Positions 16,159 through 64,000 of a stretch of 64,000 nucleotides of DNA are shown here, in pieces. Both the position numbers and the translations under genes were made by a program. Under the pieces are notes generated by a model. That model worked only from the letters and a program-made list of their open reading frames with translations. It made no database searches and was not told where the DNA came from. Origin of the DNA: Balanoglossus misakiensis (taxonomy: Eukaryota > Animalia > Hemichordata); contig CM082585.2 in NCBI GenBank assembly GCA_040954595.2, positions 6,721,808 through 6,785,807 of the forward strand. Reading direction: 5' to 3'. Every line of letters begins with the position of its first letter. Positions within the stretch are counted from its first letter, which is position 1.

Positions 16159-16600
16159 AACTCGGCGTTTTCTACTGGGACAGTTGTACTCTGGGCACCG
16201 TACTCCTCACGGGATCTGATTCACTCAGATCAGTACACGTCCTAGTGGTTAATGCCGCATCAGTTCCATAAGGGGTGACAATTTTAGACATGATAGGTTA
16301 TTTTGTCTCATGTGACATAGTACACGGCATGGCATTTTATTGAAATTGGGCATGAATTGTTTGTTAGCGTGGGACAGAACTCGGCGTTTTCTACTGGGAC
16401 AGTTGTACTCTGGGCACCGTACTCCTCACGGGATCTGATTCACTCAGATCAGTACACGTCCTAGTGTTAATGCCGCATCAGTTCCATAAGGGGTGACCAT
16501 TTTAGACATGATAGGTTATTTTGTCTCATGTGACATAGTACCACGGCATGGCATTTTACTGAGGTTGGGCATGGATTGTTTGTAATCGTGGGACAGGACT
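16159..16600. repeat. Two-copy tandem repeat, 219-bp unit
   Basis: AACTCGGCGTTTTCTACTGGGACAG... starts at 16159 and again at 16378. The copies are near-identical; each contains a GATCTGA-ttcac-TCAGATC hairpin. Confidence 0.95.
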
Positions 16601-16679: not shown

Positions 16680-17970
16680 TGTATAGTGCAGAACTTGGGG
16701 GCATAAACATTTTATTGTCAAAGTACAAAACTAGGTGAGGGTATGACATTTTATTTTGAAATAGAACTAGGGGAGGGTATGACAGATAATTGTCAAAGTA
16801 CAGAACAAAGGGAGGGCTTGACATAATGCCAGTCCTTTTTCAGATCTAGGGGAGGGGTGGGCATGGCATATTGTCAGTCATAATACACATCTGGGGGAGC
16901 ATGGCATATTTTTTTTATTCAAAGTATAGAACTAGGGGAGGGCTTGACATTTTATTGTCAGTCATATAACAACCAGGGGGAGAGGGGGACATGACATATT
17001 GTCAGTCATAATACACATCTTTGGGAGAGCATGATATATTTATTCAAAGTATAGAACTAGGGGAGGGCTTGACATTTTATTGTCAGTCATGATACACATC
17101 TTGGGGAGAGCATGATATATTTATTCAAAGTATAGAACTAGGGGAGGGCTTGATATTTTATTGTCAGTCATATAACAACCAAGGGGAGAGGGGGACATGA
17201 CATATTGTCAGTCATGATACACATCTTGGGGAGAGCATGATATATTTATTCAAAGTATAGAACTAGGGGAGGGCTTGACATTTTATTGTCAGTCATATAA
17301 CAACAAAGGGGAGAGGGGGACATGACATATTGTCAGTCATAATACACATCTTGGGGAGAGCATGATATATTTATTCAAAGTATAGAACTAGGGGAGGGCT
17401 TGACATTTTATTGTCAGTCATATAACAACCAAGGGGAGAGGGGGACATGAGATATTGTCAGTTATAATACACATCTTGGGGAGAGCATGATATATTTATT
17501 CAAAGTATAGAACTAGGGGAGGGCTTGACATTTTATTGTCAGTCATATAACAACAAAGGGGAGAGGGGGACATGACATATTGTCAGTCATAATACACATC
17601 TTGGGGAGAGCATGATATATTTATTCAAAGTATAGAACTAGGGGAGGGCTTGACATTTTATTGTCAGTCATATAACAACCAAGGGGAGAGGGGGACATGA
17701 GATATTGTCAGTCATGATACACATCTTGGGGAGAGCATGATATATTTATTCAAAGTATAGAACTAGGGGAGGGCTTGACATTTTATTGTCAGTCATGATA
17801 CACATCTTGGGGAGAGCATGATATATTTATTCAAAGTATAGAACTAGGGGAGGGCTTGACATTTTATTGTCACTCATATAACAACCAAGGGGAGAGGGGG
17901 ACATGAGATATTGTCAGTTATAATACACATCTTGGGGAGAGCATGATATATTTATGCAAAGTATAGAACC
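16680..17970. repeat. G-rich minisatellite: 125-bp unit built from three related ~40-bp subunits, with a 250-bp higher-order period
   Basis: TATAGAACTAGGGGAGGGCTTGA recurs at 17131, 17256, 17381, 17506, 17631 and 17756. Alternate units carry aacaaCCaagggg or aacaaCAaagggg. Two units lack one subunit (~81 bp). Degenerate ~40-bp monomers lie at 16680-16920. Confidence 0.95.
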
Positions 17971-18233
17971 GGGGTAGAAAATAAACAGCTCACTGATGAT
18001 TACTCGGTTTTTAATTAAACTAGAAGTGAAGCTTTATGACAGGATGTAGATGGAATGCGAATTGCTTAATTTGGGAATTAGCATTCTCAAGTTCGTATAA
18101 AATAAATACTGAGTCACTAATTGTTCGCTGGAGTTTATGATAGTCGGAAGCAGTTGTGCAAACATTTCACAAATACTTTTACAAAGATGCCGCAAGAAAA
18201 CTGTGCATGTTTTCAAAGAGTCACATAATTGCA

Positions 18234-20410
18234 CCCCGACTTTTGATTGTTCTGCGCTAATCGGTATCAATTAACACCAAATGTCCCAACTACGGAATTA
18301 TTCAATAGACAGCGTTTTTCGCTGAACAAGACAACTTCGACCCGATCAGACGTGAATTTGTGTTGCTCCGAGTCCATGCCCAAAACAAAATATTGATTAC
18401 GTTTTCACTGATGTAAAAATAAACCACACACAACCATACACATGTATTTAATATATTTATTTAAAAACCTATGAACTAAGTAAAAAAGAACTTAACAAAA
18501 ACACAATAAAATTAAAAGTCAAATAAAGTCATGAAAAATAAAAGTAAAAACAAAACAGCTGAATGATTCCTCGCCCTGACTACTCTACCCTAACCCTAAC
18601 AAAAACACAATAAAATTAAAAGTCATGAAAAATAAAAACAAAACATCTCAACCCAAACGCTGACTACTCTAATCCCCCCCTTGAAATTTATTTTTTAATT
18701 CTGCCATCACCTTCTCTGCCAATTTCTTCTTCTGGCTGTTTTTGGCTTTTTCGGTCAGGTAGTCGTGGAAAGTGTTCTTGATCCCAGTCGGCACAAAGTT
18801 CTTCGGCCACAGCCCGTCTTTTTTTCCGCTGCGGATCAGTTCTTCTATAACGACACGTTTCCCTGAACAAAACAATCACAAACTGAGAGTCGGTTAATCT
18901 ATAATGTAATCTTTTGCCGCGATGTGTGAACACAGTGAATATTCTGGTCCCAGTCCAGAAAATTTAAAATAACGTCCAAATGATTGGTCAACCGTAATTC
19001 ATGTTTATAGTCAAAATAGTCCTACCTGAGTACCCTTTTTTCTTCTCAATCATAAAAAAATGAAAGTAGGCGTTTTGGGCCGGCGTCAACTTTCCGCTCA
19101 CGCTGGAGACGTAGTGTCTTTCCAGGCGGTCCTTCAGGTCGTCATCCTCGAGATCGTCCAGTGTGTTTGGCACCTTGGGTGGTGCCGACGTAGAAGGCAT
19201 GATCGATCTGAACACATTGGTAAACTTTTTCTTCTTCGGGGGCTCTGGTATGTCGTCGTCGCTGCCTTCCGGCGCTGCCGCAGCCCGTTTTGTAGCCAGG
19301 GCGTCGTTCAATGAACGAAATTGTTCCTTCATTGTCCCCGACTTTTGATTGTTCTGCGCTAATCGGTATCAATTAACACCAAATGTCCCAACCACGGAAT
19401 TATTTAATAGACAGCGTTTTTCGCTGAACAAGACAACTTCGACCCGATCAGACGTGAATTTGTGTTGCTCCGAGTCCGTGCCCAAAACAAAATATTGATT
19501 ACGTTTTCACTGATGTAAAAATAAACCACACGCAACCATACACATGTATTTAATATATTTATTTAAAAACCTATGAACTAAGTAAAAAAGAACTTAACAA
19601 AAACACAATAAAATTAAAAGTCAAATAAAGTCATGAAAAATAAAAGTAAAAACAAAACAGCTCAATGATTCCTCGCCCTGACTACTCTACCCTAACCCTA
19701 ACAAAAACACAATAAAATTAAAAGTCATGAAAAATAAAAAAAAAAACATCTCAAACCTAACGCTGACTACTCTAATCTTGAAATGTATTTTTTAATTCCG
19801 CCATCACCTTCTCTGCCAATTTCTTCTTTTGGCTGTTTTTTGCCTTTTAGATCAGGTAGTCTTGGAAGGTGTTCTTGATCCCACTGGGCACGAAGTTTTT
19901 CGGCCACAGCCCGTCTTTTTTTCCGCTGCGGATTAGCTCGTCGACTACGACATGTTTCCCTGAACAAAACAATCAGAAACTGAGAGTCGGTTAATCTATA
20001 ATGTAATCTTTTGCCGCAATGTGTGAACACAGTGAATATTCTGGTCCCAGTCCAGAAAATTTAAAATAACGTCCAAATGATTGGTCAACCGTAATTCATG
20101 TTTATAGTCAAAATAGTCCTACCTGAATAGCCTTTGTTCTTGTCGAGCATGAAATAATGAAAATATGCATTTTGTGCTGGGGTCAATTTTCCTCCGCCGA
20201 CGGTGGAGACATAATGCCTTTCCAGGCGGTCCTTTAATTCTTCATCGCTGATGTCTTCCAATGTGTTCGGCACCTTGGGTGGTGCCGACGTTGAAGGCAT
20301 GATCGATCTAAACACATTAACTAGCTTCTTCTTTTTGGGCGGCTCCGGTAAGTCCTCGTCGTCGTCATCGTCACCGCTTACCGGCGCTACCTGAGGCTGA
20401 GCCCGTTTTG
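18234..20410. repeat. ~1.1-kb tandem segmental duplication (18234-19335 and 19336-~20410)
   Basis: CCCCGACTTTTGATTGTTCTGCGC... begins at both 18234 and 19336. The 3' flank, exon 3, intron and part of exon 2 are duplicated in order. Confidence 0.93.
18669..19332 (-). CDS. Uncharacterised spliced gene, copy B (5'-truncated duplicate with intact C-terminus)
   Basis: Exon 19332-19026 (MKEQF...PEPPKKKKFTNVFRSIMPSTSAPPKVPNTL...KKKGYS G|GTAGGA); 163-nt GT-AG intron 19025-18863; exon 18862-18669 (GKRVVIEELIRSGKKDGLWPKNFVPTGIKNTFHDYLTEKAKNSQKKKLAEKVMAELKNKFQGGD*). Phases match. An excess of synonymous differences from copy A supports real coding constraint. The ATG sits 3 nt from the duplication junction, so expression is uncertain. 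Confidence 0.6.
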
Positions 20411-20666
20411 GTGCCTGGTACTGAACCATAACCTCCATTTTGTCCATTTTCTCTTCGATTCTTTTCAATCTTTCGTTCATCTCTTTTAAGGTTTCCAACG
20501 TAAAATCTTTGAGTACTTCAAACGACGTGCTCATTTCCATTTGAAATTCCTCCAAGTCTTCTTGGTGAGCCTGAAATCAAAAATATATACCACCAAAATT
20601 AAAAAGTAACCTTCACAGAAAAAAAAATATCAATGATATAACATTATTAATTTGTTTACTCACCAT
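19772..20666 (-). pseudogene. Uncharacterised spliced gene, copy A (complete 5' end, premature stop in last exon)
   Basis: ATG|GTGAGT exon at 20666-20664; acceptor ttttgatttcAG; exon 20570-20123 (AHQEDLEEFQMEM...coiled coil...DDDDDED LPEPPKKKK...NKGYS G); 163-nt intron 20122-19960; exon 19959-19772. A TAA at 19849-19847 replaces the GAA of copy B and removes the last ~25 codons. It could still make a slightly truncated protein. Confidence 0.6.
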
Positions 20667-22145
20667 TGTAAGAAGGGATAAAACTGGAATAATTCTGAAA
20701 TCTGAAATGGGAAAAACGGTAGTATTCAACAATTAATCTCTTTAAGTCTACACAAAATGTAGTAAAATTTCGTTAACTCGAAAGTTGGCGCTGAAGAAAT
20801 TCACACGTCATCATATCAGAGTTAAGTACACAGTTAACTAATTTTAACTCCTCGTGATTCTGAAGTCTTTCACGTCGCATCAAATGAGCATCTATGTACT
20901 GTAAAATGGGAAATTCAGGCGAACGATAAACTAAGCGACAGCCAAATAAATGCAAAAATCAAAGATTGCGTATTTTTCGGTGATGACGAATCGTGCCTGG
21001 TTTACATACGAGCAGAAAACTTCAAATGGTCAACAAAATACAACAATCGATATTGTAATAAGATGTAAGTCTTTACCTTCAATACATCGACACGCACAGC
21101 AGAACTGATGAACGCAAACTAAGTCTCAACTTGAAAAGCGTGGGCACTGCATGGTGCAAATTTGCATGACAAAGCCACAATATCCATGTCAGGAAACCCC
21201 TGATCACAGGTGTACGATTCATAATAGGGTAATTGATCATTATCAGTTAGAAACTAAGAGCATCTTTCCAACTTGTGGAAACCCAAAACGAAAGGAAATA
21301 AAAAAAAACAACTTATTACTACCCCTTTATTTTGTAAATCCTCAACCGAAGAATTCACGAAAGCGTCAGCATTCTGTAACAATACCTGTTTAATGTATCC
21401 CTCTCATTGTCATTCAAATCAACCCCTCCCACAGCAGCCTATAGTCTGTAGTTTGCTCATGAGTGTAAACGTTCCACGACACGTTTCTATATCATTCGAT
21501 ATCTACTGAAGATTCCATAAAAAAACAACCCTCACTTAATGTTCCGTTTCATAAAATTAACGACGCTTGTTTTGTACATTGGACTACTATGATTGGTCAT
21601 TATTTTTGGCTCGATCAGGCTTTGTTGATTAAAAGTCAGCAAGTTCTATTTAGATAAACTTACAGGTAGTTGCACAGCTATATCTTGAAAATAGCGCCAA
21701 GGACATTGTATTTATTTTTGGATTTTTCATTAAGTTGCAAGTTATTTTTGTCAAAATGAAATGACTCGTGGAAAGTGCAGACTATGCCCTGTACTCTGGA
21801 AAATAGTGCCAAGGACACTGTGGTCTCATTCATGTAGGACTAAACATACATGTAATATCAGACATATTTTGCTTTCACTGGTAAATTTACTAACAAGCTT
21901 TTCCGTAACGTGTTGGTGTCCGGCGGCCATCAATGGCAATTTTAAGTGTAATATTGCCAAATCCCCATGGCATCACTCACTCACTTCCTTGACATATTTT
22001 GACAGAGAATATATGTGTTTATCTCGGAGCTAAAGGTAGACCGAAATAGCACACCTCTGCCGTACGTCACCCCATAAAATGAAATAAAAACACCAGCGCA
22101 CGTCAGTATTCTGTGAGCGTGAACAAGTCACAGAAGAGGACGAGC

Positions 22146-25100
22146 ATGATGATCGCTGTAAGATTAATCCTATGTTTGCTCTGCCAGGTATGTTGTGTTA
22201 CATTTCCAACATTGTAGAGTATCCATCCAAGTTTTTACTTCGAACACTGAAATCGGATATGGGACTATTTTGTGTTGTCGAGAAACACTCATGCCAATTG
22301 AGAGTTAATGTTTCTCCTAAAAAAAGAGATTCCAAGCAGTTTAACTTCGAGATAAAGTCAAAGGCTTCTCATTCTGCTGTTTTAGTTTTCGTTACAGACT
22401 GAGCTAGGATTGTACAAAGGACTAGCTTTTTCTAAAAGTAAGATGTTATTGATATTTATTGTGTAATTGCGAAAGCTGATTTGTGACAATTCTTTATTTG
22501 GGAAATCTTAATGCCACATTTAAAATTTTTCGCTCATTTTTCCGTACCGCCTTAATATACCAAGTGGACATAATGCTCCACTGTCGAAAGATATTGATCA
22601 AAGTTTGAGAAAACGTGGGAAACATTTTGACAGTTAATTCTTTTTTATTTAAAAAAAAGATGATGATAAGTTGCCTAATGCGTTGAAAGGGTTGATCTAT
22701 GTTTACTTGACCAACCATATGTCCATAAGTACAAGTATCAATTGGCTAGAAAATATTCTGCTCTAACAGTAAGACTGCTGTAAAGAGGCGGTGCAGGTTG
22801 GTGGGCCCTAGATTGTGGTGTCGACTGTTGAATTAGTGTAGAGTCACTATTTCTGGATTTTTCCATTAACATGGAACGATAAAAGTGCAACTATCTGAAA
22901 AAATTCAATTATGATGGTGGGAAAACAGGGTAGTCATGTCGTGAAAAATACAATTAGGTCGGTAAATAACCAGCAATTTTGTTACTTGGGACACAATATC
23001 GTGCTCAAATTAACCTAAAAATAAATTCACGAAGTGTATTGATATATGCATATTTTGGGATGGTGCACGATAATATTAAATTTTGCATAACAATTTCTTT
23101 CAAAATGAAAGGGTTAATTCACATCTAAGATGTAAATCTGTAGAATGTATGCCGTATATGATGTACACAAAGTTAAACCGCCAATTATGTGATGTAGGAA
23201 TACGATTTTCTCTCAGTACATTGGTCCATCATGTTATAATCATCCCGTCTCTGCTCGGGGTATCTGTGACACCATTATCCAACATGAACCTAAGGGGAAT
23301 TTACGATTGGTGTCTCTTTTTTAGTTACTCTGTAAATGTATCGCGCCCTCTTGATTGTGACATGCAAGGCGCGTAATGGTACATTCTGTTTCGTGCGTAA
23401 ATTTCAAAATATAAAGTGACACGGTTTCATTTCTATGCCTTTATAGACAGCAATCAACGGTATTGCACTGAATCATCGCCGATCCGACGGTGAGTTGAAA
23501 TGATAATTGTCTACAGGTAACATGCAACAGGGAATATTTGGGACTGACGATATACAATTACGGCAGCCCTGTTATTTTTGTGCATGGATGCCAACCTCCT
23601 GCCAATGCATTTGCTGAATTTACTGATGTGATGTGATTTCACACCCATGATTTTGTTTGAAAATATATAGACGTGATTGCAATTACGCATATCATGCACG
23701 GAGAAAAGTAGAATACCCTTTCCTTGTTATATGTGACCAGTATGCAAATTGAATTCCATATGGTACACTCTAGGATGGGCTGGTTTTTGTCATCCCAGAG
23801 AAATCAAAATGGAGTTGAATCCCCAAGTTCAAAATGAGGGTTTTCGGAATGACTTGTAAACCGTGATTTTTTTTCTGCTCCAAAGTGGTGTAGTCCCTTC
23901 CACCCGAAACACGGCTGGCCAATTATGGAAGATGCGAGAATCTGGTGTCCCAAATGTGTATTCAGATCTAAAGGCTCCTTGTCTGTTGCAGAATGCTCGG
24001 GTACGAATTATCTGCATGCCCAGAAAGGACAGACGGTGACCATCTCGTCGCGGAATCACCCGTACGACTACAGCAACAGCAACGACTGCGTGTGGGTGAT
24101 CAGCACTGACCTCGGCGGGAGGCTGCGCACTCACTTCACGTCCTTTATAACGGAAAGTGGCTACGATTATTTGTCGATCGGCGAGGGATCAGACCCCGAC
24201 GACAAAGACTCCGAAGCGAAGAAATTATCTGGCAACACTTTGCCTACCGATTGGCTGTCTGAGGCGTCGCCCATCTGGGTGAAGTGGCATGCTGACGCTT
24301 CGGTGACAAAGCCAGGATGGAGTCTTGAAATCAGTGGAGTTGCCGGAGGTAAGGTATCTACCGCGATTGGTGGTGAGATAACTTGAGAGATGCACACCTT
24401 ACCGGCTCAATATGCTGAATGTTTACTTTGTCATTATAGTAAAAATGCTAGTTTTGATGTCGAAGGAGATGTTAATTTCTGGGAGACCCACTTTCTTGAA
24501 TGATATACTAATATAGTATGATATAAAACTAAAAATATGACTTCTTCAGAAAGAAATTCGGTATTTTTTAATGATTCTGTTACAGCCTGTGTAGGCACGA
24601 ACTTTTTAAGCGTAGAAGCGGGTCAAACAATCTTCATTTCGTCGCCCGACTATCCAAGCCAGTACAACAACAACGAAGACTGTCAGTGGGTGATCAGTTC
24701 TGACGTCGCCGGCATTCTGCAGACTGTCTTCACGGCTTTTGATACGGAGAGTGGTTACGACGAGGTGGCCATTGGATCTGGCAGCGATCCCAGTGATGCA
24801 GACTCAGAGGTTGTGAGAGCGTCCGGTTCGACCAAACCCGCGGACTGGTGGTCTGAGGGGTCTCCAATATGGGTCAAGTGGCATTCGGACGGTTCGGTGA
24901 CGAAAACCGGATGGCAGCTTGCGATTACCGCACATGACAGCCGTAAGGACATTCTTCTTCTCGGGCTGCATGTAAAATTGTGGGGTGGGGGTAGACTCCA
25001 TAAAAGTCGTCCCATGCACTGAATGAAGGAGAATAGCATCACATTGTGAGAGGCCCTTCATCTCGCATGTCGTGGATTTTAAAGACCGACCTCTAAGATT

Positions 25101-25666
25101 TTGGATTAGGTGAAACCGTACTTCTACCATTATTTAATAAATTGCATTTCCTAACAGAGGGAATAATGGCCACATGCACGCACACTTCTAAAAGCCTGTT
25201 TTTTTAAACAACCCGTTTGCGCTATCCGCGATCAGATAGGCGCACATCATGTGCATGTAACTATGTAAAGCTTGTGACAGAAATATGCGTTTCTGTGCAT
25301 TTTACTATGACAGGTTGCTCGGGCACGAAACACGTACACGTAGCGCAGGGTCAATCCTTCTTCATGACGTCACCAAACTACCCCAGCAACTACGAAAATA
25401 ACGAAGACTGCGTCTGGTTGATCAGCACTGACATGGTCCACACTCTGCAGACTCACTTCACAGACTTCAACACCGAGAGAAATTACGACGTGATTGCGAT
25501 TGGGTGGGGCCACGATCCCAGCGACACCACCTCGGAGGTGATCAGGGAATCTGGCACGGTCGCCGTGGGTGATTGGCAATCGCCGGGGTTTCAGATGTGG
25601 GTCAAGTGGCACTCGGATGTATCGGTCACCCGTAAAGGCTGGAGCCTGACCATCACTCAGACTTAG
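22146..25666 (+). CDS. Secreted protein with three tandem CUB domains, 5 exons, 383 aa
   Basis: Exons 22146-22187 (MMIAVRLILCLLCQ|GT, phase 0), 23447-23489 (TAINGIALNHRRSD, phase 1), 23992-24348, 24586-24942 and 25314-25666 (one CUB each, all phase 1). CUB motifs: C.G, S(P)xYPxxYxNxxDCxWxI, FxTExxYD, WVKWHSDxSVTxxGW. AATAAA near 26010. Confidence 0.88.
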
Positions 25667-28600
25667 GTGAATATTAAAATGCACTCGTACACAAGAATAC
25701 TTGTGCCAGGCTGTACCCCGTATACCTGCTCTTTTCACACACAACTCTGATAGGTTTAGCAGTGGGGGATAGACATGAGCTTGCAAGCACTGTAAAATGA
25801 GTATTGGCTGAACATTTCACCCTAAAAAGATTGCTACAAACGGTTTCTCACCCGGTTTCTGTGTTATCGGATATCATATATAACATATTAAAAGTCCAGC
25901 AAATGCTGACGACTGGAAAGGTGTAATCTTAAGGTGACGCCCAAGATGGCCGCCACTTAATTTTCAGTGGAATATTCTTATTTTGTTGTTTTTAAAATAT
26001 ATTGTACATAAATAAATTTTATTATTCTATTTCTTGGGAAACCGTTGGATGCAAAAGATACCTTGTTTCACGAAACAACGCGGCACACAGAAAGTTGAGA
26101 TTCCTTGGCGTGTATCATTGAGAAAGATGATTTCAATGTCTGCCTTTATATTGTCTTTTTTAAATGCCCTTTCTCTATTTCATTGCAGATTTGTATTAGC
26201 TTTAGAAAGGCGATGCAAACTTGAAGAGAACGACATCAAAATTATTACACAATGTTTAATTAAACCAGTTATCATATTAGACCTGGTACAAAATGATTTT
26301 GACGTATCTGCTGTAATGGTTGCTATTATTTCAAATCTATTCCTGGATTTTAAAGTTATTTAGTGCTCCAATTATATAGAAGGTAAAACTGAGTGCTGAC
26401 AATAAAATTATTGAGTATGTACATGTATGTATGTGGAACTCCCCTACATACTGGTGAACGCCCTCTAATGATTATACGCAAAATGCACTTGTTTTTCGTT
26501 TGGAATAAGATATCAGAATTTCTCTTCGCATAATCTTAGACTAATAAGTATGAATTAGTGGATGTTTTCCGTACTATTTTTTACTTGCCTATAGTTACCG
26601 ATATAGTGACTGTCATTCTCGAAAGAAAACAATACAGAGAAATGATGAATCAATAGTAAATATTTCCACCGGTCTTTAATCGTCCCGGTTGAGCACACAC
26701 GTCTACATATGTTCTATTAATATGTTTAATTATAGTAAGTGAATTATAGATAATGCGCACAGGTATTTACATTTCGATTACAACATAATGCGACTTGATA
26801 ACGTAAATCACCAGGAGGCGTGCTTCTCTTAATACTATCACCGGAAACACCACCACGTCCATAATTAGAGTGGAAATTAATTCACTCTTGTTTAAGGAAT
26901 TAGCTAACACTCTATCAAACTTTCCATGCTTGCAACACCTGTCCCCGTACTAGAACTGAGACCGGAAGTAATCAAGGCATTGGAGAAGTCAGAACGACAC
27001 ATCAATATTTGCTTGAGATCGTCCATTAGGGATTATACAAATAATATGCAAATGTTAGGCCGATGGTTGAAAACGCGCAATTGTTGGAAACGAGATTTCC
27101 AGGTGCATCTTTGAAGTCCATAATTACGCAGAAACCATGTAACTATCAGTCATCTTACAGCAATTCTCAAACCCGAAGAAAGCTTTTCCCCAGCAGTCTA
27201 TTCAGATGAAAAGCCAGTTTGGTGAATTTAATATATGCACATTACGAAAAACCAACAATGAGGCCAAATGTCGAAAAGTTGGCATAGAATATGTTTCATT
27301 TCTTATTTGAAATTTCGGTCCAATGTGTCTGATGCAGATGGAACATTGGAAGCTTGAACCTTTTGAGAACCCCATGTGGTTGTGTATGTGAATCGCTGAC
27401 CAGGGGTTCAATCCACATCTTTACCAGATTATAGCTTACAGTCTATTGAGCGCACGCACATGGAACTGGCATAATGTCACGATCTCCGGTTTTACAAATA
27501 AAAATAAAGGTATTGCTTGCGTGTTTATCACATACAACAACAAAGATTGGCTTTGGTTCAGTTAGGCATTCTAAAGCTAGTTGTTGACACGGTCGATTCA
27601 AGCATCCAAAGGTAAGCCGATTTGACACGTATCTATGAACTCAGTCTAAAGTCAACAGCGCGAGTTATACATAAGAAGCACGGCATCGTTTTTCTTCTTT
27701 GCACGTACGGAAAAAAAGGGGCTTGGAATAAGAATGTGGCAAATGGAAAGTGAATACCTATTTTTTGATGGAGGAGGTCCTTGAAATCTTTGGAAATTAG
27801 ACTTCTCCAAACTTGAACACGCATGCTATTATACTCTGCATTGTACACAACTGGGAGTGAATAGTAGTGTCTTCAGCCGGAGACCCTGAAGGGAATTTTG
27901 TACCAGCATTCGTGTGGGACGTGACCGCAAAATGTGAGGGTAAACTAAGCGCCATTTCACTGAGCCAAATAATGCAATATATGTACCGTAAAATATTAAT
28001 GATAGCATAACCTTGGGCAGTTTGACTAGGATGTGTTATACGAAATTGTCTTTGTGAATAACACAGCCTTCGCTAGTTCAAGAGATGTGGGAAACATTGA
28101 CATTGTCCTTTCTTTCAACTGAGATTTCAGTGAAGATGTGTCAGTCAAGGCATCATTAACCATACCAAATAAGTTAGAGTTTTTTTATCAAGTTTTCTAA
28201 AAAGATTTAGGAATATTCCTCAAGCTCAATAACTGATCATTCTACCAGCAATGTTCGGAAAGTATTAATATGATAAAAACTAGAAGTGAAACTTGAAAAT
28301 AACTACTACAGTTGATTATCAGCAGTGAAACTATCTGCTGAATAATTAATGAAGCTAAATGTTAAAACTACACAAGGAACCCATTACTATCAATAATTTA
28401 TGATCAACGTTTATAAAATAATACGCAAAACTACACATCAATATAACACGTGGGATATAATTATCTTAAAGATCAGTGATAACTGTAAAATTGATTAACA
28501 CGCGATAAATTCATCATTTCTCAGTAAAATTGAAATTGTCAGTGTCTAAATCGTGATCTAAATGAAACATTGAATGATGACATTTATCATGAAGAAACCG

Positions 28601-30293
28601 ATTTTCTATTAGATGTAACAGATATTGTACGGTTTACTTTCAACAGGAGCGTGATACATTATGTTCCAATTTTCTTTCCAGAGATTAGAAACCACTCGGT
28701 TATAATAACATGAATTTGTAATTCAATCCCCATCATCATCTACATCACCCCAACTATCACCATCATCATTATCATCATCATCGCCGTCGTCATGATCACT
28801 TTACGTGTATGCGAAAAGTCAAAAACATCTGCTTAATATACCATTAATGATTAAAACACACGTACATATCCATAATCAGATGAAATTAAAATGCTATCAA
28901 AGAAAATCCACCCCGGTGATAATAAGGTTCACTGGTGCGGTAATACTGTATAACCACACATTGGACTGACTTCAGTGGTAACAACAAAATGGCTTCCAAG
29001 TGGTGAAAATTTGTGCTTTCTCCCGCTAATCTTGTTCAGAAAGTAATTTTGTCGTCGTGACATTGTTCGAAATATGTCCCAACCTAGTCAATAACATTTG
29101 TTAACGTCAAGGACGCTTTAGTATTGTTGAAGAAACATTCTAGTATGAGACAATATGAACATATGAAATACATTTATTGATTGATTAAGTGGCACATTGT
29201 CCCCCATTTATTCTTTGACTATGCTGAATACATGTCTTTGAACTGAACTCATTAGAAATATTAAATTGTAAAATATACTTTCGCGTATGGACCTGAATGA
29301 CTATTGATGAGAATTTAATGAATGCCCGCAGTAAGTAAAGTATGTGCTACACGCATAATAATTAGTACGGATCTGAAATTAGGCCAGTCTTGTGAGAGCG
29401 AAGAAATATCGTATCGCAAGAATTCTGGCAAGTCTACAATTGATGTAAGTGCATCGTAAAGAAACAATATACACATAACATCGACTCATACACACTTTCA
29501 GATAACGTCGTGATATCAGAAATCCACCACGTCACAATGTTATAAGTTCATAATGGGATGAACTTTGTTTGATTTGCAGTGTGTATGGAGTAATATTTGG
29601 CTTTTATAATTATAGACAAATATCCTTTATAATGATCCATTATTTCATAGCGGATGCCACGATAAGAGGCACTGGGTCCCAGAAATGGGGGATTAGAAAT
29701 ATATAACTCACACAGCATTATCATTATGATTGTGCCATCATCATCATACATAAGTTTATCATGACTCGGGTAAATCTGACGGTTTAACAACTATGGGGGC
29801 GTAATCGTGACTTCCCCCGCCTTCTATAGCAGTCTTACAGTTTTCTATTACCCACCTTCACTGTTTAAACTGCTTCTGAGAAATTTGGAAAAGATGGCTA
29901 ATGCACAGCAGTGGGTTTCTTAAAATATTGTGTCGCTTTTTAGAAAGTTACGGGCAGCTTTCACTGAAAAGACCAGTTCCAGCTGGTAGGTAGTTATTAC
30001 TTATCTCACCCTGCCACCGAATGAATACGACCTACATTTTTTGTACATGGCTAGGGGAGCTGGCTCACTGGAAATCCATCAAGACGGCGATTACGAACTA
30101 ACTTGCCTCACATTATCATATGTTGACGCTCGCTTCGATTTCTTCGTCGGACTGTTGCGGACGAAACCAACGGATGGCGGTGCATGTTTGTTGAACTCGA
30201 ACATGCTAGAAGTCAAATCATTGGACACATTCAGCCTGGTTCCAGAACATCCGAAGAGGAGGGGAGAACGCTAACAACGTCAGATGTGGTGAA

Positions 30294-33200
30294 ATGGGCA
30301 TCTTCGACATCTCCAATCGATTCAAGTGGACGCATTACATTCCCCAACCGTCCATCTCTGTATATTTTCAGACTGTGCTTGTTTTCGTGATGCTAAGTAT
30401 TGACTATTGTAATGGTGTTGAAAATTTCACAATTGGACTACTGGCCCCGTTGGGATGCGACTCCGTCTTCTCCACAGCCATGCCGCAGATAGCCACCGAA
30501 CTGGCTATAGAGAATATCAATAACGACCCAGAGTTTCCTGCTCAGATTAACTTAGATTATTTGGTTAGAAACACCAGTTGTTCTGGCACAGGGGAACTGG
30601 TTGAGTTGGTCAGTTTACTGACGGAAATGTCTGTGGATGCAATCGTCGGGCCGACGGAATACTCGACTTGCGAACCGGCTGCTCGCCTCGCAAGTTACTG
30701 GTCCACTCCAATGGTGTCTTGGACGTGCACAAACAGTGATCTGAAAGATCCTAGCATTTACAGGACGTTCGCAAGAACGGTCTCACCCTTTGCGTGGACT
30801 GCGAAAGCACTTGCGGCGGCACTGCTGCGCTTCCGCTGGAAATACTCGGTCGTCGTCGCGACTCCCGACCGATACTGGCAGGAAGCGGCCAAAGAGATCA
30901 TTTTCAGTCTGGGAGAGGCAAATCTGGTGGTTACTGAGTTCCTTACGATTGAAAACGTGGCATCTCGCGAAGAGATTGCTACAGCCTTGGGAGGCATTTC
31001 ACCTATTGTTAAAGGTAATTGATGAAATTGTCTTATTAAGATAGGAAATCCAGTACTTTAATACAGGCTTTTGGCGAGAAATATAAAAAACACCTTAGCA
31101 ACTCAGGCTTGATTTCACATTAGTTCTACTCAATTTATTCGGCATAAATGTAATATTCGTTTGATTGTTGGGTATCGCTATATCTATGCAGTAGCGTATC
31201 GTTACATTATCACATAAACGTCAATACCTTATCTTCTTCTGTACTGGCGGCGATTTCACGCATCATAATTATTTATGCGATTGCCATTTTAAAGCCCTTT
31301 CTTACTCACTTAGATACTATCCACTATAATCAAGAGCATTCAGTGTCGTATGTGCATGTCTATATCTGTGAGGGTTCCTTTGCAAGCAGGTCTTTTCTGC
31401 CAACTGATTTCCTCCAAGCTATGTTGAGTTATCGCAGTAAGCCAACCTCAAATTGAGACGTCTGGCGTCTGCTAAACACTTATTATAATCAGAGCGGCGG
31501 TAAGTCTCGAATCCTGAAATGGAGCACGATAAAATTAGCGCCAATTATCGCGCTTCAACAACTCGGAATTTCAATCAAGTCAAATGGGGCATAGTGGTGC
31601 AGCGAGAAGCACGCTTGCACTTGACCCAAGGTCCATTAAATGGTCATTTCATTTCAAAGCTTGGGCGAACAACACCCCGAGCTAATATACAGAATTACAG
31701 CGTCGAAGTCGCCATACTAATATGATGATACATGTGCCTAGAGTTTATTAAATTGTGAGATGTTGCCTTTTTGAGTGCTTACATTCGTGTGTATACAACA
31801 CTTCACCAATATCCAATATTACCATGTTGGAGCTGCAGTGCATTACCGTTATTCCCTGTTCATCTAATAAACGCTTGGAGGTCTTTGAATATTTTCACGA
31901 GAGCAGGCTTAGTTTTCTTTGGTGAATACAGTACAGGTTTTCTCGACTGTGTGTGTCCCCGACAACACTGTTTTAATTTCCCGTCAGTTTTTTGCGGACT
32001 GAATTTCTAAGACAATCCATGATGGATTACAACATCTTCGTCCGCTGCCTGCAGAGATGGAAGTCCATCGCAGGAAGACAAACAGCTGTCTGTTGTCATG
32101 GTGACCATATACAAACGATCAATCAGCGAGTAAGGAAACACTGTCAATGGAGACTTTTAATTGCTTGTATCAGTCTACATTTGTACCAGTCCCTTGCGAA
32201 TAAATTATTTCTGCAATGCTATTGTGTTGTTGGGGTGAAAAGACTGGATGTAAATCATAATGTCGGATTTCGTCAGACATGGGACCAGGAAATATACAAG
32301 GTCTAATCGAACAGTTTCCGCAGTTCTTGCATCAAACCAAATCAATATGACGTCAAACAAGGTCCATTGTGATTCAAAGCGATCTCATTACCAGCTCCAA
32401 GAAATAAACATGGAACTGATAAATATAATAGGGGCATCTTGAACCAGGCCATAGAAATTTAAGCGCTCCCTGCAACCTGTCAAGACTGGCCCAAAGTGAC
32501 AAGTTCAAGTGTAATTTGGGTAACCACCAACTTACTGTAAGTTGAAAATTGAAGTTAGGAATGGGCGGAGGTATAATATTTCCATATCTATGTGTACCGT
32601 AGAGATTTTTATGTACGCTCTCACCAATATATTTTCTGAGAATCTGATAATCGCAATGTATACGATGATTATGTCCAAGTTGTGTAACCGACAGCCTTAA
32701 CGTGAGTCGCGGGCTCTACAGTATCTCACTCAGGAGTCGTGAAAAGTATACAGTGGAGGTAATGGAATAGTTACGATTGAACCTTGAAATGGTCACTTTT
32801 GCCACGCAGCTTAGCGTCACTGTTTCAGTAAGGAGACAGGGTGCTATTTATCGCCAGTGATTTTAGCTCGTCAATGCGAAAATGCTATGTATGCAAGGAA
32901 CAAACCAACAATCGATATGGATGCAAATAATACGGTTATGGCTCCCTTTCTAACAGTAATCGCTGATGTTAATTAAGTAAACACGTGTGATGCAAGTGGT
33001 TATGTCACCTGGACGGTCTTTTAGAAATGTCAAGGTGTGACTTCAAATTATAGACAGACAGACTTTGTTTTTCATCCCCGAAAAAGAATACGGCTGCAGA
33101 AAATAATGGTTGCTTCTGTGATATTGTAATTACTTGGAATTCTGGGTAATCATCTTTTCCTTTGGCTAGGCATAGGGAACGAAGGTTTACACAGCTTCAG

Positions 33201-39200: not shown

Positions 39201-42200
39201 CGATTGTATTGTTGTCAATAACGTGTTTGGATTACTGTCATGCTTAAAACCCAGCATAACAGAATGTCCCTGCCCCTTTTTGACATGGTTATTCTGTTTT
39301 ACCATATTTTGACTCATCCTATTTCACCCATTTTACAGAAGCCTCAAAGTTGTTCAGTGTGTTTGGTTGAAGTACTGTCTTGCGCCAAAATAATGGGATA
39401 GTCAACATCATTCTATTTCATAATCTATAGTACAGGCGGCGTGAATCAAGCATTTTGCGTCTTTCTGGCGCAGCGTGTGTTTAAGGTACACACGTGTGAA
39501 TATAAACGCTGTAGTAAGAGTAACCATGGCAACAGTGAAAGTCGATTCCTGGAGTGTGTCGTGGACTAGCTAGGAAGGGATGGTCGCGGATAATTCAGAG
39601 TCCTGTGTAGACAGAGGGCACTGGGTTGGATAAGAAGGCAGATGAGAGAAACAACAACACATAAGGCGTTAGGAATGAGTGCAGAGTAGACGAGACAGCC
39701 TGCCAATACTAGTGACAGGCATTCAAGCTCCGAAAAAGCCACTGAACCCTCTTCATTAATTAACTCAAGGCTCGATAAAAATCTATTTTTAGCTTGAGTA
39801 TTAATCTCCATCCATACCCTTGCGGCACTTCAATATATATTATAATTAAAATGATCTACACGTTGCATATACAGTACCTTACGGAACCGTCTCGAACCGT
39901 ACGGCACTTAGCGATGTACCAACTAAACGCCATTTTGCATGCTGGCCACTTCACTATGAGTACAAGCTATATATCTCAAGATGCTTACAAAATTGTTGCG
40001 GCGAGCAAAAAGGAAGTAATTACGTGAAAAGTTACAAAAAGTGGCTTGTTATTGAAAAACTGAATACAAGAATAATATCCAAAACGATGAGAATCTTTGG
40101 AATTGTGTTACTATATAAACTGCGTTTCGTTTATGTTATATTTTGTAAAACATATAGCATTACAAATAAAATGTAGTAAGTACGTTGATAATCGCAATCT
40201 TTGTTTTTTCCCCATGTATACTGATCTGATGAAATGCAGAGGCAACTGAATATAATACATAACCACTTGCACATACTCTTAATATTTCGTTATCTCAGGA
40301 TATTTTTCAAGAGAAACTGAACACAGCAAGAGCAATACCAATAATTTTTATTGCTCTTTAATAAGAACAACCTGTTTTAAGGATTATGAAAAAGCTTGTG
40401 CTTATGAAATGTGTTATTTCATATCTGTCGTATGATTTTAGTAAACTATATAGGTCTCTTGCAAACAAGTCTCTCTGATCGGTCTTTGGCTAATATGTTA
40501 TATTGTTGATAGCTGGCCAGTATTAAGGATTCAGTAAAAAAAGTACAACACCAAATGAACCTCAGTAGACCTCATAACCGAGATATCAAATCAAATTGAT
40601 GGTGGTTTTGTCACACTCGCCATTGTCATTGATTGTAAGAAAAGCATTGGATAAAATCAATCACACAATTCTGTTATCCAAGGGATACGATTATTGGGTT
40701 TAGGGTGTCCACACTTAATTGGTTTAAGGCTAATCTAGAAGGCCAACAACAAAAATGTTCATGATTGCACTTCAATCGTGAGTACAATCTCCAGTGGAGT
40801 TCCACAGGGACCAATTTGATGTCCATTTCTTTTCCTGGTGTATATACAAGACATTCTGCAGATCTTTAGAACAATTTCAGTACAGATGAGGTATGTAAGA
40901 GTACTTCGAAGTGCATACTCGGTGTATACAAGTCCGAGTACAGCCACTACTCGGAGTGTACAAGTCCGAGTACTCGGACTTTGAAGTCCGACTCGGTCTT
41001 TGAACTCGGAGTATGCACTTCGAAGTACTCCTACATACCTGTACAGATGCATTATCTGCTGATGAGCAGACACAACTGACCCGGGCAATTTGAACATTGA
41101 GTGTTTTTCTCGGGGCTACTCATGATTCCTCAGTACTATATGCTGAAATTCTCACATTGACACACTTTGTAAGGAATTTAACCGAAATTTAGGTCTTATT
41201 TCATATATCTACGTCATTAACCTCCCCAAATCAACCGATAACCATTGCTCAATTGGCTTATTCTTCCCCCATATAATATATTGGAACGAGATATGGCGAG
41301 ATGCATACAAGACACACTGCACGTAGATCGTCTTTATGAATTGCAAAAGAGAATTGTAAGGTTGATAACCTTTTCTGGCCGCAGTTATTTCGGCAACTTG
41401 GAATTACCAGCGTTCAAAATCTTTGTAAACTTCGAAAATTGTAATTACAATATAACAAAAGCACGATCCTGTAGTCGGGGTGTGCACGTTCCACTGTTTG
41501 CAGGTACATGACGACGTAGCACTCATAAAATTGCAAATTAAACGAGTTTTGCTATCGACAATGTCTTGTTGTCAACATGATTGTATCCATTGAACGACGT
41601 GTTAGGCTTAGCGGGTCTCGAACATTGTTGTCAGTGAAAGTCAATTCTTGGTTCACGATCACACATGACTGCATGTACCAGTTTCATTTAATGTAATCGA
41701 TTAGCAAAATTGAGTTAATCCCAAGCTCAAAATTGAAAGTTTCCACCTATGCAGAACAAATATGGAAATTCATCAACTGGAATGAATAGAGCCTATGGAG
41801 GAGTTTTAAGTGACTGTCTCTAGCACAATGTCCCCACTGAAGCAAAAGTCTTCAAATAACCCAGCACAAAAATAGCCGATGGCATGCACTTGGTAATATG
41901 GAGGGGTACTCATTTTGGCTCAATTCAAGGTTTAATCAGAAGGTCAAATGCAATTGTTTACGTTTACCCGAATTTGTATAAGCATCACCGATTTACACTT
42001 TCTGTTTATTTATATCGTGTATAGTTGCCCACAGCAACAAAATTACACTCTGCTACTAAAGTAAAGGGACACTTAATCTGTCGTCATATTTAATTCAAGT
42101 CAATTTTATTGTATGATTTTAGTGCGTCATTTACATTAATATAATTTGGTGAAGACTGGCAGCAATATTTTGTGTGGGTTTATCACTATCCCTTTCCCAT

Positions 42201-62681: not shown

Positions 62682-62944
62682 GTAATTATAACATTGGGGA
62701 TATACGAGTGACACTTTGTGTATCTATAAGAAACTTGATGAACGATTTTGTGACAGATCATGCTGTTCATCTCCGACCAATTATGACGTCGAGTCGTGAC
62801 GTTGAATTGTTAGAATAGGATAAACGTAGCCGCCTCAAGATCAGAAAACATGACAAATTAAATGCAAGTGTATGCACAGTCAAACCTGTCTGTAACAGCC
62901 AGTCAAGGGACTTTCCTAAATTGGCCTTTATAGAAAGGTGGCCT

Positions 62945-64000
62945 TCACAGACAGGCCAGTTACTGAACATGTAAATCGCACGTGAACTGTGGCCGCCACG
63001 GACAGGTCAGTTACTGTACATGTAAATCGCACGTGAACTGTGGCCGCCACGGACAGGCCAGTTACTGAACATGTAAATCGCACATGAACTGTGGCCGCCA
63101 CGGACAGGCCAGTTACTGTACATGTAAATCGCACATGAACCATGAACTGTAACATATTGGCCGCTATAGACAGGTCAGTTACTGTACATGTAAATTACAC
63201 ATGAACTGTGGCCGCTATAGACAGGCCAGTTACTGTACATGTAAATCGCACGTGAACTGTGGCCGCCACGGACAGGCCAGTTACTGTACATGTAAATCGC
63301 ACGTGAACTGTGGCCGCCACGGACAGGCCAGTTACTGAACATGTAAATCGCACGTGAACTGTGGCCGCCACGGACAGGCCAGTTACTGAACATGTAAATC
63401 GCACGTGAACTGTGGCCGCCACGGACAGGCCAGTTACTGTACATGTAAATCGCACATGAACCATGAACTGTAACATATTGGCCGCTATAGACAGGTCAGT
63501 TACTGAACATGTAAATCGCACGTGAACTGTGGCCGCCACGGACAGGCCAGTTACTGAACATGTAAATCGCACGTGAACTGTGGCCGCCACGGACAGGCCA
63601 GTTACTGAACATGTAAATCGCACGTGAACTGTGGCCGCCACGGACAGGCCAGTTACTGAACATGTAAATCGCACGTGAACTGTGGCCGCCACGGACAGGC
63701 CAGTTACTGAACATGTAAATCGCACGTGAACTGTGGCCGCCACGGACAGGCCAGTTACTGTACATGTAAATCGCACGTGAACTGTGGCCGCCACCGACAG
63801 GCCAGTTACTGTACATGTAAATTACACATGAACTGTGGCCGCTATAGACAGGCCAGTTACTGTACATGTAAATCGCACGTGAACTGTGGCCGCCACGGAC
63901 AGGCCAGTTACTGTACATGTAAATCGCACGTGAACTGTGGCCGCCACCGACAGGCCAGTTACTGAACATGTAAATCGCACGTGAACTGTGGCCGCCACGG
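62945..64000. repeat. 51-bp minisatellite array in a GC intron, running off the window
   Basis: Unit GGACAGGCCAGTTACTG(A/T)ACATGTAAATCGCACGTGAACTGTGGCCGCCAC, about 20 copies. A variant unit with an insertion (catgaactgtaacatattggccgctatag) occurs twice. The 17-aa repeats in the ORF track reflect the 51-bp period. Confidence 0.97.

What the first reader, a model, noticed from the sequence alone, without database searches (positions are those of the whole stretch)
18234..20410. Tandem gene duplicates with inverted divergence: exons differ 10-20% (mostly synonymous) while intron and 3' flank are ~98-99% identical
Seen (hand counts, approximate): the two 163-nt introns (18863-19025, 19960-20122) differ at 2 positions and the ~435-nt 3' flanks at ~8-9. 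Exon 3, which lies between them, differs at ~20 of ~190 nt. The alignable part of exon 2 differs at ~46 of ~226 nt, largely at third codon positions. Divergence runs to within a few bases of the splice sites (GGG TAC TCA G|GT versus GGC TAT TCA G|GT) and then stops. Established: after ordinary duplication, introns and synonymous sites diverge at similar rates, so this pattern is the reverse of expectation. Inference: either exons were overwritten from a spliced RNA/cDNA of an older paralogue without intron loss, or non-coding DNA is being homogenised across a family whose exons are kept diverse, as in some immune gene families. Either could indicate an undescribed exon-diversification process.
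Basis: partly seen in the sequence, partly recalled or inferred. Interest (0 to 1): 0.85.

Follow-up and report, generated by a model that had tools for sequence, protein, structure and literature searches.

The report
Near-identical intron, diverged exons, orphan family
Copies of an unnamed animal gene share an almost identical intron while their coding exons differ deeply, mostly at silent sites, in this genome and in a distant relative's DNA, likely because DNA copying between the copies (gene conversion) keeps the non-coding parts alike, as known from primate colour-vision genes, rather than because exons are rewritten from RNA.

Summary
Copies A and B differ at 47/236 (exon 2, dS 1.20, dN 0.11) and 20/182 (exon 3, dS 0.46), but at 2/163 intron and 8/439 flank sites. 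A lacks its 5' end; B has a premature stop. Read-derived contigs show more copies whose diverged exons join a near-constant intron, so collapse is unlikely. A distant homologous pair shows the same skew (intron 0.13, exon dS 0.73) with an unrelated intron sequence. The protein is an unnamed animal family. Best reading (0.6): gene conversion homogenises non-coding DNA while exons escape, likely held apart by selection and their own divergence, as in L/M opsins; the intron's 5' part is probably also constrained. Against cDNA overwriting: divergence falls near the stop codon, is patchy inside exons, and no intron-less joint appeared. The scan noted this pattern before in other genomes. Unusual here: a roughly 40-100-fold contrast, dN/dS near 0.1, family-wide. 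Why the exons resist homogenisation is untested.

The parts
20664..20666 (-). Predicted start codon (coding part of exon 1) of copy B, followed by a GT donor
   Evidence: sequence; no RNA support
20571..20663 (-). Predicted intron 1 of copy B, 93 nt, GT-AG, phase 0
20123..20570 (-). Exon 2 of copy B: predicted coiled coil, acidic run, basic NLS-like motif (both read by eye), start of conserved helical domain
   Evidence: 30% identity over 145 aa to L001 exon 2, E 2e-10
19960..20122 (-). Intron 2 of copy B, 163 nt, phase 1, with a CCAAT-box-like motif at 20078
19772..19959 (-). Exon 3 coding part of copy B with premature TAA at 19847-19849
19336..19771 (-). 3' flank of copy B, cut off at the junction with copy A
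19026..19335 (-). 5'-truncated exon 2 of copy A, open frame
   Evidence: a joint 19312 to 20557 in runs X1 and X2 points to a longer A-type copy elsewhere
18863..19025 (-). Intron 2 of copy A, 163 nt, 2 differences from B, CCAAT-box-like motif at 18981
18669..18862 (-). Exon 3 coding part of copy A, intact, conserved animal orphan domain
18234..18668 (-). 3' flank of copy A, 98% identical to B's; poly(A)-type signals at 18461 and 18452
16714..17969 (.). G-rich minisatellite array (36-125 nt units) downstream of copy A

Best explanation
These are two damaged members of a small, old gene family whose non-coding DNA is likely kept alike by gene conversion between copies, while the coding exons likely escape because selection rejects tracts that overwrite each copy's protein variant and the built-up differences then block further copying. 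Shown: the divergence contrast, purifying selection on the protein (dN/dS about 0.1), several further exon variants joined to a near-constant intron, and the same skew in a distant homologous pair. Inferred: (1) conversion is the homogenising force; (2) tracts also invade exons where the amino acids already agree, which gives the identical runs and the gradient from the flank into exon 3; (3) the 5' part of the intron is also under sequence constraint (likely a promoter-type element), which kept it inside the identity range needed for conversion; (4) the A-B tandem arose by a deletion or non-homologous join that fused B's flank to A's exon 2. The protein is predicted to be a nuclear coiled-coil protein; I think it is about as likely as not carried by a mobile element, which is not shown.
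For: (rates); non-coding A/B distance matches the local allelic-level distance (10/602 vs 8/886); in X1, 18880-18967 has 0 differences at depth 140.8 and 18963-19029 has 0 differences at depth 202.8, against about 35-45 for single variant contigs. Two more contigs keep the intron's 5' end (2 differences in 55 and in 61 nt) and then run into exon-2 ends spelled differently at silent sites within 4-5 nt of the donor. Contig D: 14 differences in 114 nt (105 intronic, no gaps) versus 32 in 116 nt of exon 3 (p = 0.005); silent differences sit nearer to amino-acid differences than by chance (permutation p = 0.039 one-sided); beyond 6 codons only 1 of 20 third positions differs versus 33 of 89 nearer (cut-off chosen after seeing the data), close to the intron's 1 of 40 at 21-40 nt. 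L001/L003 intron 34/293 (JC 0.13) versus exon 3 37/167 (dS 0.73, dN 0.18), p = 0.003. No CpG or single-base bias in exons (37 transitions, 30 transversions, 11 of 67 in CpG context). Precedent: PMC3213168 (abstract, section 12), PMC3924837 (section 3.2).
Against: The amino-acid differences are scattered and mostly conservative (D/E, I/L, S/T, F/Y), not an obvious target of selection for distinct functions. Patchy conversion alone would also couple silent and amino-acid differences, so that test does not show selection. The coupling is absent in exon 2 alone (p = 0.31), in L001/L003 (p = 0.81) and in all pooled (p = 0.14). Pooled over 12-40 nt from an amino-acid change, exon third positions still differ more than intron sites (10/45 vs 1/40, p = 0.008), so distance alone does not explain the step at the donor. 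The classic test (paralogues closer than orthologues in introns) needs a sister species and was not possible. Both window copies are damaged. Depth is only a rough copy count, and all runs come from one sample that may be the assembly's source.
Confidence: 0.6

Rival explanations
1. Pure constraint: the intron and flank are cis-acting elements (promoter, replication or mobility signals of a mobile element) under strong nucleotide-level purifying selection, while silent sites drift freely; no conversion is needed.
For: The intron stays alignable with few or no gaps in distant copies whose flanks are unrelated (contig D; L001/L003). Its 5' part is the more conserved part in both hosts (17 of about 200 vs 17 of 89). 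CCAAT-like motif. Copies are damaged, lie beside minisatellites and, in L003, near a weak transposase-like fragment (DDE_Tnp_4 E 0.019, below the cut-off).
Against: It would need a roughly 25- to 100-fold slowdown over about 600 nt that includes AT-rich low-complexity repeats. No fold signal (z -0.05 and -0.53). No Rfam match near a gathering score (4 matches, E 1.2-4.5). No similarity between the window and L001 introns (p = 0.16). No terminal inverted repeat found.
Confidence: 0.17
2. Selfish or recognition family under frequency-dependent selection (like the wtf drivers): each copy must differ from its sisters in protein, or its mRNA must differ in sequence to escape silencing by small RNAs from sister copies, while a shared intron promoter and flanks are swapped by conversion.
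For: Many exon variants in one sample, including silent-only respellings of the same residues and a variant of B's 5' exon 2 with 21 differences and a 6-nt gap in about 235 nt. wtf genes share a 150-bp intron-1 promoter and stay distinct within clusters (PMC5478263, passages).
Against: dN/dS is about 0.1. The predicted 3' UTR, also a small-RNA target, is 98% identical. By eye, no in-frame ATG lies near the intron's end to give a short sense isoform. No functional or expression data.
Confidence: 0.11
3. Exons were overwritten from spliced cDNA of older paralogues, leaving the intron and flank of a young duplicate.
For: The donor-side boundary is sharp (90% set 19015-19033) and recurs in several copies.
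Against: Divergence falls near the stop codon, not at the predicted transcript end. Divergence is uneven within and between exons. None of the 4 listed joints skips the intron (contigs cannot prove absence). In L001/L003, identity extends 21 nt into exon 2. From general knowledge, cDNA recombination across a junction tends to delete the intron and would homogenise exons rather than diversify them.
Confidence: 0.06
4. Assembly artefact: the non-coding parts of two diverged copies were collapsed or polished to one consensus.
For: No listed contig spans the whole stretch, and none listed bridges the 19335/19336 junction. The runs may be the assembly's source. Contigs drop single-base bubbles.
Against: Separately assembled contigs carry the flank (19478-19722, 1 difference, depth 145) and the intron (depth 141-203) at about 2-3 times the depth of neighbouring DNA (67), while diverged exon contigs end about 30 nt inside the shared intron. 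The same skew appears in unrelated assemblies.
Confidence: 0.03

Closest known systems
Primate L/M (red/green) opsin tandem genes: intronic gene conversion with exon divergence peaks (PMC3213168, abstract and section 12 read; PMC3924837, section 3.2 and passages read)
   Same: Tandem paralogues in which both synonymous and non-synonymous exon divergence exceed intron divergence.
   Different: Here dS reaches 1.2 against 0.012 in a 163-nt intron, several copies take part, no selected residue is known, and both window copies are damaged.
Tigriopus GOT1p1/GOT1p2 islands of divergence (PMC3728101, abstract and passages read)
   Same: Marine invertebrate paralogues with exonic divergence islands, low Ka/Ks and patchy conversion; clustered divergence is said to block conversion.
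   Different: That pair has no intron; in the intron-bearing GOT1Sd/Sr pair it is the intron that diverged, the reverse of this case.
Fission-yeast wtf meiotic drivers (PMC5478263 and PMC9562144, passages read)
   Same: Compact spliced multigene family, ectopic conversion, near-identical flank, conserved intronic promoter, clustered copies that stay distinct.
   Different: Wtf proteins are transmembrane poison-antidote pairs; this protein is predicted to be nuclear and soluble, shows dN/dS about 0.1, and has no evidence of drive or of two isoforms.
Fast-evolving exons of venom-associated genes: snake SSPs and conotoxins (PMC7150969, PMC3862624, passages read)
   Same: Introns conserved within a family while exons diverge.
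   Different: Those are marked by abundant non-synonymous change; here the changes are mostly silent.
Sea-urchin SpTransformer family (PMC8634487, passages read)
   Same: Small clustered two-exon deuterostome genes in repeat-rich loci.
   Different: Their intron tree mirrors the exon tree and most exon SNPs are non-synonymous; no sequence relationship was tested or seen.

Membership tests
Opsin-type divergence peaks under interlocus gene conversion | Exon divergence, synonymous included, significantly above intron divergence between paralogues | tested here: met
Opsin-type divergence peaks under interlocus gene conversion | Introns group by species while exons group by orthologue | not testable with these tools
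   No host genome held and no sister-species locus found
Opsin-type divergence peaks under interlocus gene conversion | Conversion tracts or mosaic patches visible in the sequence | tested here: inconclusive
   Identical exon runs and coupling of silent to amino-acid differences in A/B (p = 0.039), not in L001/L003 (p = 0.81)
Opsin-type divergence peaks under interlocus gene conversion | Identified residues whose difference is kept by selection | not testable with these tools
   Function unknown; differences mostly conservative
cDNA-templated exon conversion | Divergent tract covers the whole mature transcript, 3' UTR included | tested here: not met
   Flank 8/439; change point near the stop; first poly(A)-type signals at 18461 and 18452. 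The transcript end is predicted only.
cDNA-templated exon conversion | Intron-less donor copy exists | tested here: inconclusive
   0 of 4 listed joints skip the intron; contigs cannot show absence
Accelerated-evolution (venom-type) genes | dN/dS near or above 1 in the diverging exon | tested here: not met
   0.09 and 0.11; 0.24 in L001/L003
DNA transposon accessory gene | Terminal inverted repeats and target-site duplication around the unit | tested here: inconclusive
   None among the 25 longest of 606 inverted pairs; end motif has no inverted partner; the unit's true ends are unknown
DNA transposon accessory gene | Linked transposase gene | tested here: inconclusive
   L001 has a 938-aa orphan ORF upstream with no family match; it has no tblastn match in the window
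wtf-like poison-antidote driver | Two isoforms, one from an intronic promoter, and transmission bias | not testable with these tools
   Only a CCAAT-like motif in the intron
Intron-encoded structured RNA (snoRNA, miRNA) | Rfam match or folding better than shuffles | tested here: not met

The most novel reading that the evidence does not exclude
An unrecognised, animal-wide selfish gene family, likely mobile, in which copies are selected to differ from their sisters in coding sequence, even at silent sites (to evade cross-silencing or cross-neutralisation), while a shared intronic promoter is continually swapped among copies: an animal counterpart of the wtf driver architecture, repeated in at least two distant hosts.
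Probability: 0.1. Interest if true: 0.8.

Novelty: new variant of a known kind. Interest (0 to 1): 0.36.

Why it matters
If conversion is the cause, this is an extreme natural case (silent-site distance about 40 to 100 times the intron distance) that can test how sharply a divergence barrier can sit at an exon edge, and whether constraint on an intron is what keeps it convertible. It also flags a conserved, unnamed animal protein family whose paralogues appear to resist homogenisation in two distant lineages, which marks it as worth a functional look. It does not, on present evidence, show a new RNA-templated diversification mechanism.

Tried and rejected
Whole-genome search: no genome is held, so copy number, retrocopies and exon versus intron trees could not be computed. 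Expression: no RNA holder listed; this is no evidence either way. Protein identity: nothing at a curated cut-off in Pfam, NCBIfam or PHROGs. Exon 2 found 0 relatives among 24 candidates, and the exon-3 profile 0 among 7991 longer proteins. ESM Atlas gave no usable hit. PDB sequence searches gave only chance-level matches. The exon-3 model (pLDDT 74, two helices) had best Z 5.0, rmsd 2.8, 57 aligned, among generic helical matches and no viral match under E 1.8. The 938-aa L001 ORF folded at pLDDT 34 and was not searched. No relatives in viral contigs or prokaryotic genomes. Rows dropped: P0008 (repeat protein, 1 of the 9 hits); L004-L007 (4 of the 7 loci, 23-residue matches, not analysed); L002 (99.8% identical to L001). 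The metagenome scan covered 58 of 64 parts. Rejected: CpG or editing-type hypermutation; structured RNA in intron or flank; terminal inverted repeats. Paper searches with 0 results: cDNA-mediated exon conversion among paralogues, intron homogenization with balancing selection (81), piRNA escape with conserved introns (101), venom hypermutation (61); one search gave 6 unrelated papers. These were strict all-term searches of open-access text only, so they do not show absence from print. No supplements were opened.

Full report
Observation. The window holds a direct duplication of about 1.1 kb (18234-19261 vs 19336-20361, 91.6% identical) of a minus-strand spliced gene. Copy B has a predicted ATG exon (20664-20666), a 93-nt intron, exon 2 (20123-20570), a 163-nt phase-1 intron and exon 3 with a premature TAA at 19847-19849. 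Copy A starts abruptly inside exon 2 at 19335, fused to B's flank, and has an open exon 3. Differences are 47/236 in exon 2, 2/163 in the intron, 20/182 in exon 3 and 8/439 in the flank, with Fisher p from 1e-4 to 1e-9. dS/dN is 1.20/0.107 and 0.46/0.051. A structure-blind change-point model places its best three breaks at 19030, 18857 and 18639, next to the donor, the acceptor and the stop codon; only the first is tightly bounded.

Is it real? No whole genome is held. Three runs were listed, all from one sample that may be the assembly's source; two hold the stretch. Their contigs were laid twice. Depth is only a rough guide, but neighbouring DNA lies at 67 in X1, single variant contigs at about 20-45, the shared flank at 145 and the intron at 141-203 with 0-1 differences. 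Diverged exon contigs end about 30 nt inside the intron, as expected if they converge on one shared node. At least three further contigs carry the intron with other exons. Contig D has 14 differences in 114 mostly intronic bases with no gap, against 32 in 116 bases of exon 3 (by subtraction; p = 0.005), and its flank does not align. Two others keep the intron's 5' end (2 differences in 55 and in 61 nt) and run into exon-2 ends that spell nearly the same residues with other codons. A joint from 19312 to 20557 points to a longer A-type copy elsewhere. I read this as roughly 7-10 haploid copies, an estimate only. Collapse is unlikely, but no listed contig bridges the A-B junction.

The gene. It lies between a galactose-3-O-sulfotransferase ORF and a CUB plus ANF-receptor gene. 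Earlier notes of this scan call the host an acorn worm (not tested here). The exon-3 peptide has 9 relatives at E up to 0.001 among 1.84 billion proteins, 8 of them alignable short pieces of 59-80 aa, with no informative name. A metagenome scan gave 7 loci, 3 of them near full-length matches. L001 encodes a homologue over all of exon 2 (30% identity, E 2e-10) with the intron at the same codon, and has a 938-aa intron-less orphan ORF upstream. Family, atlas, structure and viral searches named neither protein. The coiled coil and nuclear-localisation motif are read by eye. Damaged copies, adjacent minisatellites and a sub-threshold transposase fragment in L003 hint at a mobile element; no ends were found.

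Replication. L001 and L003 are 82.5% alike over 543 nt only. Their intron differs at 34/293 (JC 0.13), exon 3 at 37/167 (dS 0.73, dN 0.18; p = 0.003), exon 2 is broken in L003 and barely alignable, and the flanks are unrelated. The intron shows no similarity to the window's (p = 0.16). L003 and L001's twin L002 come from one metagenome assembly, so a common host is likely but not shown. In both hosts the 5' part of the intron is the better conserved.

Mechanism. The non-coding A/B distance equals the local allelic-level distance (10/602 vs 8/886), which points to recent exchange between copies whose exons split long ago. Exon divergence is patchy: identical runs of 35, 29 and 23 nt, dS falling from 0.57 to 0.34 along exon 3 towards the flank, and silent differences lying nearer to amino-acid differences (p = 0.039; 1 of 20 beyond six codons). 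This coupling fails in exon 2 alone, in L001/L003 and in the pooled set, and would arise from patchy conversion without selection. At matched distance the intron is still more alike than exon third positions (1/40 vs 10/45, p = 0.008), so some constraint on the intron is probably needed as well; a CCAAT-like motif sits in its most shared part, with no RNA structure or Rfam match. The substitution spectrum shows no CpG or editing bias. I therefore favour conversion of non-coding DNA, with exons held apart by selection and by their own divergence (0.6). Pure constraint gets 0.17, a selfish or recognition family 0.11, cDNA overwriting 0.06 and artefact 0.03. The cDNA model fails mainly because divergence follows the coding sequence rather than the predicted transcript, and no intron-skipping joint is among the 4 listed; the transcript end is predicted only.

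Comparison. Gibbon L/M opsins show both synonymous and non-synonymous exon divergence above intron divergence, explained by intronic conversion (PMC3213168: abstract and section 12; review PMC3924837: passages and section 3.2). Tigriopus GOT1 paralogues give an invertebrate case and state that clustered divergence lowers conversion (PMC3728101: abstract and passages). wtf drivers offer the closest selfish-gene analogy (PMC5478263, PMC9562144: passages). Venom-type genes and SpTransformer differ in their abundance of amino-acid change (PMC7150969, PMC3862624, PMC8634487: passages). The locus works like the opsin case; the defining cross-species test is missing, so membership is not shown. The scan recorded similar patterns in other genomes; my opsin reading came earlier.

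Verdict. Real, family-wide and repeated in a second lineage, but best read as an extreme variant of a known process rather than a new exon-diversification mechanism. What keeps conservatively different proteins apart, and what the family does, remain open. Interest 0.36.

Noticed in passing
L001 499-3315: 938-aa intron-less ORF upstream of the homologous gene with no match in Pfam, NCBIfam, PHROGs, PDB sequences, ESM Atlas, viral or prokaryotic contigs; its C-terminus looks Myb/SANT-like by eye (recalled motif, no call). Candidate enzyme of an unknown mobile element.
   Followed up: partly
L001 6105-6221: Long imperfect hairpin directly after the stop codon of the homologous gene.
   Followed up: no
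L001 5653-5690: Short 12-nt tandem repeat inside the conserved intron, resembling GTCY microsatellites of Helentron-type elements (recalled, not tested).
   Followed up: no
window 20321-20555: A contig with 21 differences and a 6-nt gap at about the same depth as the exact copy in both runs: possibly the other allele of B, about ten times more diverged than neighbouring non-coding DNA.
   Followed up: partly
window 17970-18380: The distal flank is shared with other loci that continue into unrelated sequence (loose ends at 18347 and 19480 in X2); a 59-nt insertion variant at 18172 occurs in both runs.
   Followed up: no
window 20897-20930 and from 21830: A 34-nt motif matched by many unrelated contigs, and the start of a very high-depth repeat (about 15,000); likely transposon remnants.
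   Followed up: no
window 16159-16600: Two 219-nt tandem copies, 95% alike, next to the minisatellite.
   Followed up: no
window 22146-31022: Predicted signal-peptide exon, three CUB-like exons (two scanned) and an ANF-receptor exon: likely a CUB-bearing receptor, head-to-head with copy B.
   Followed up: partly
window 62882-64000 and 40889-41040: A 51-nt tandem array with a 208-codon open frame on the minus strand, and a 150-nt imperfect inverted repeat.
   Followed up: no
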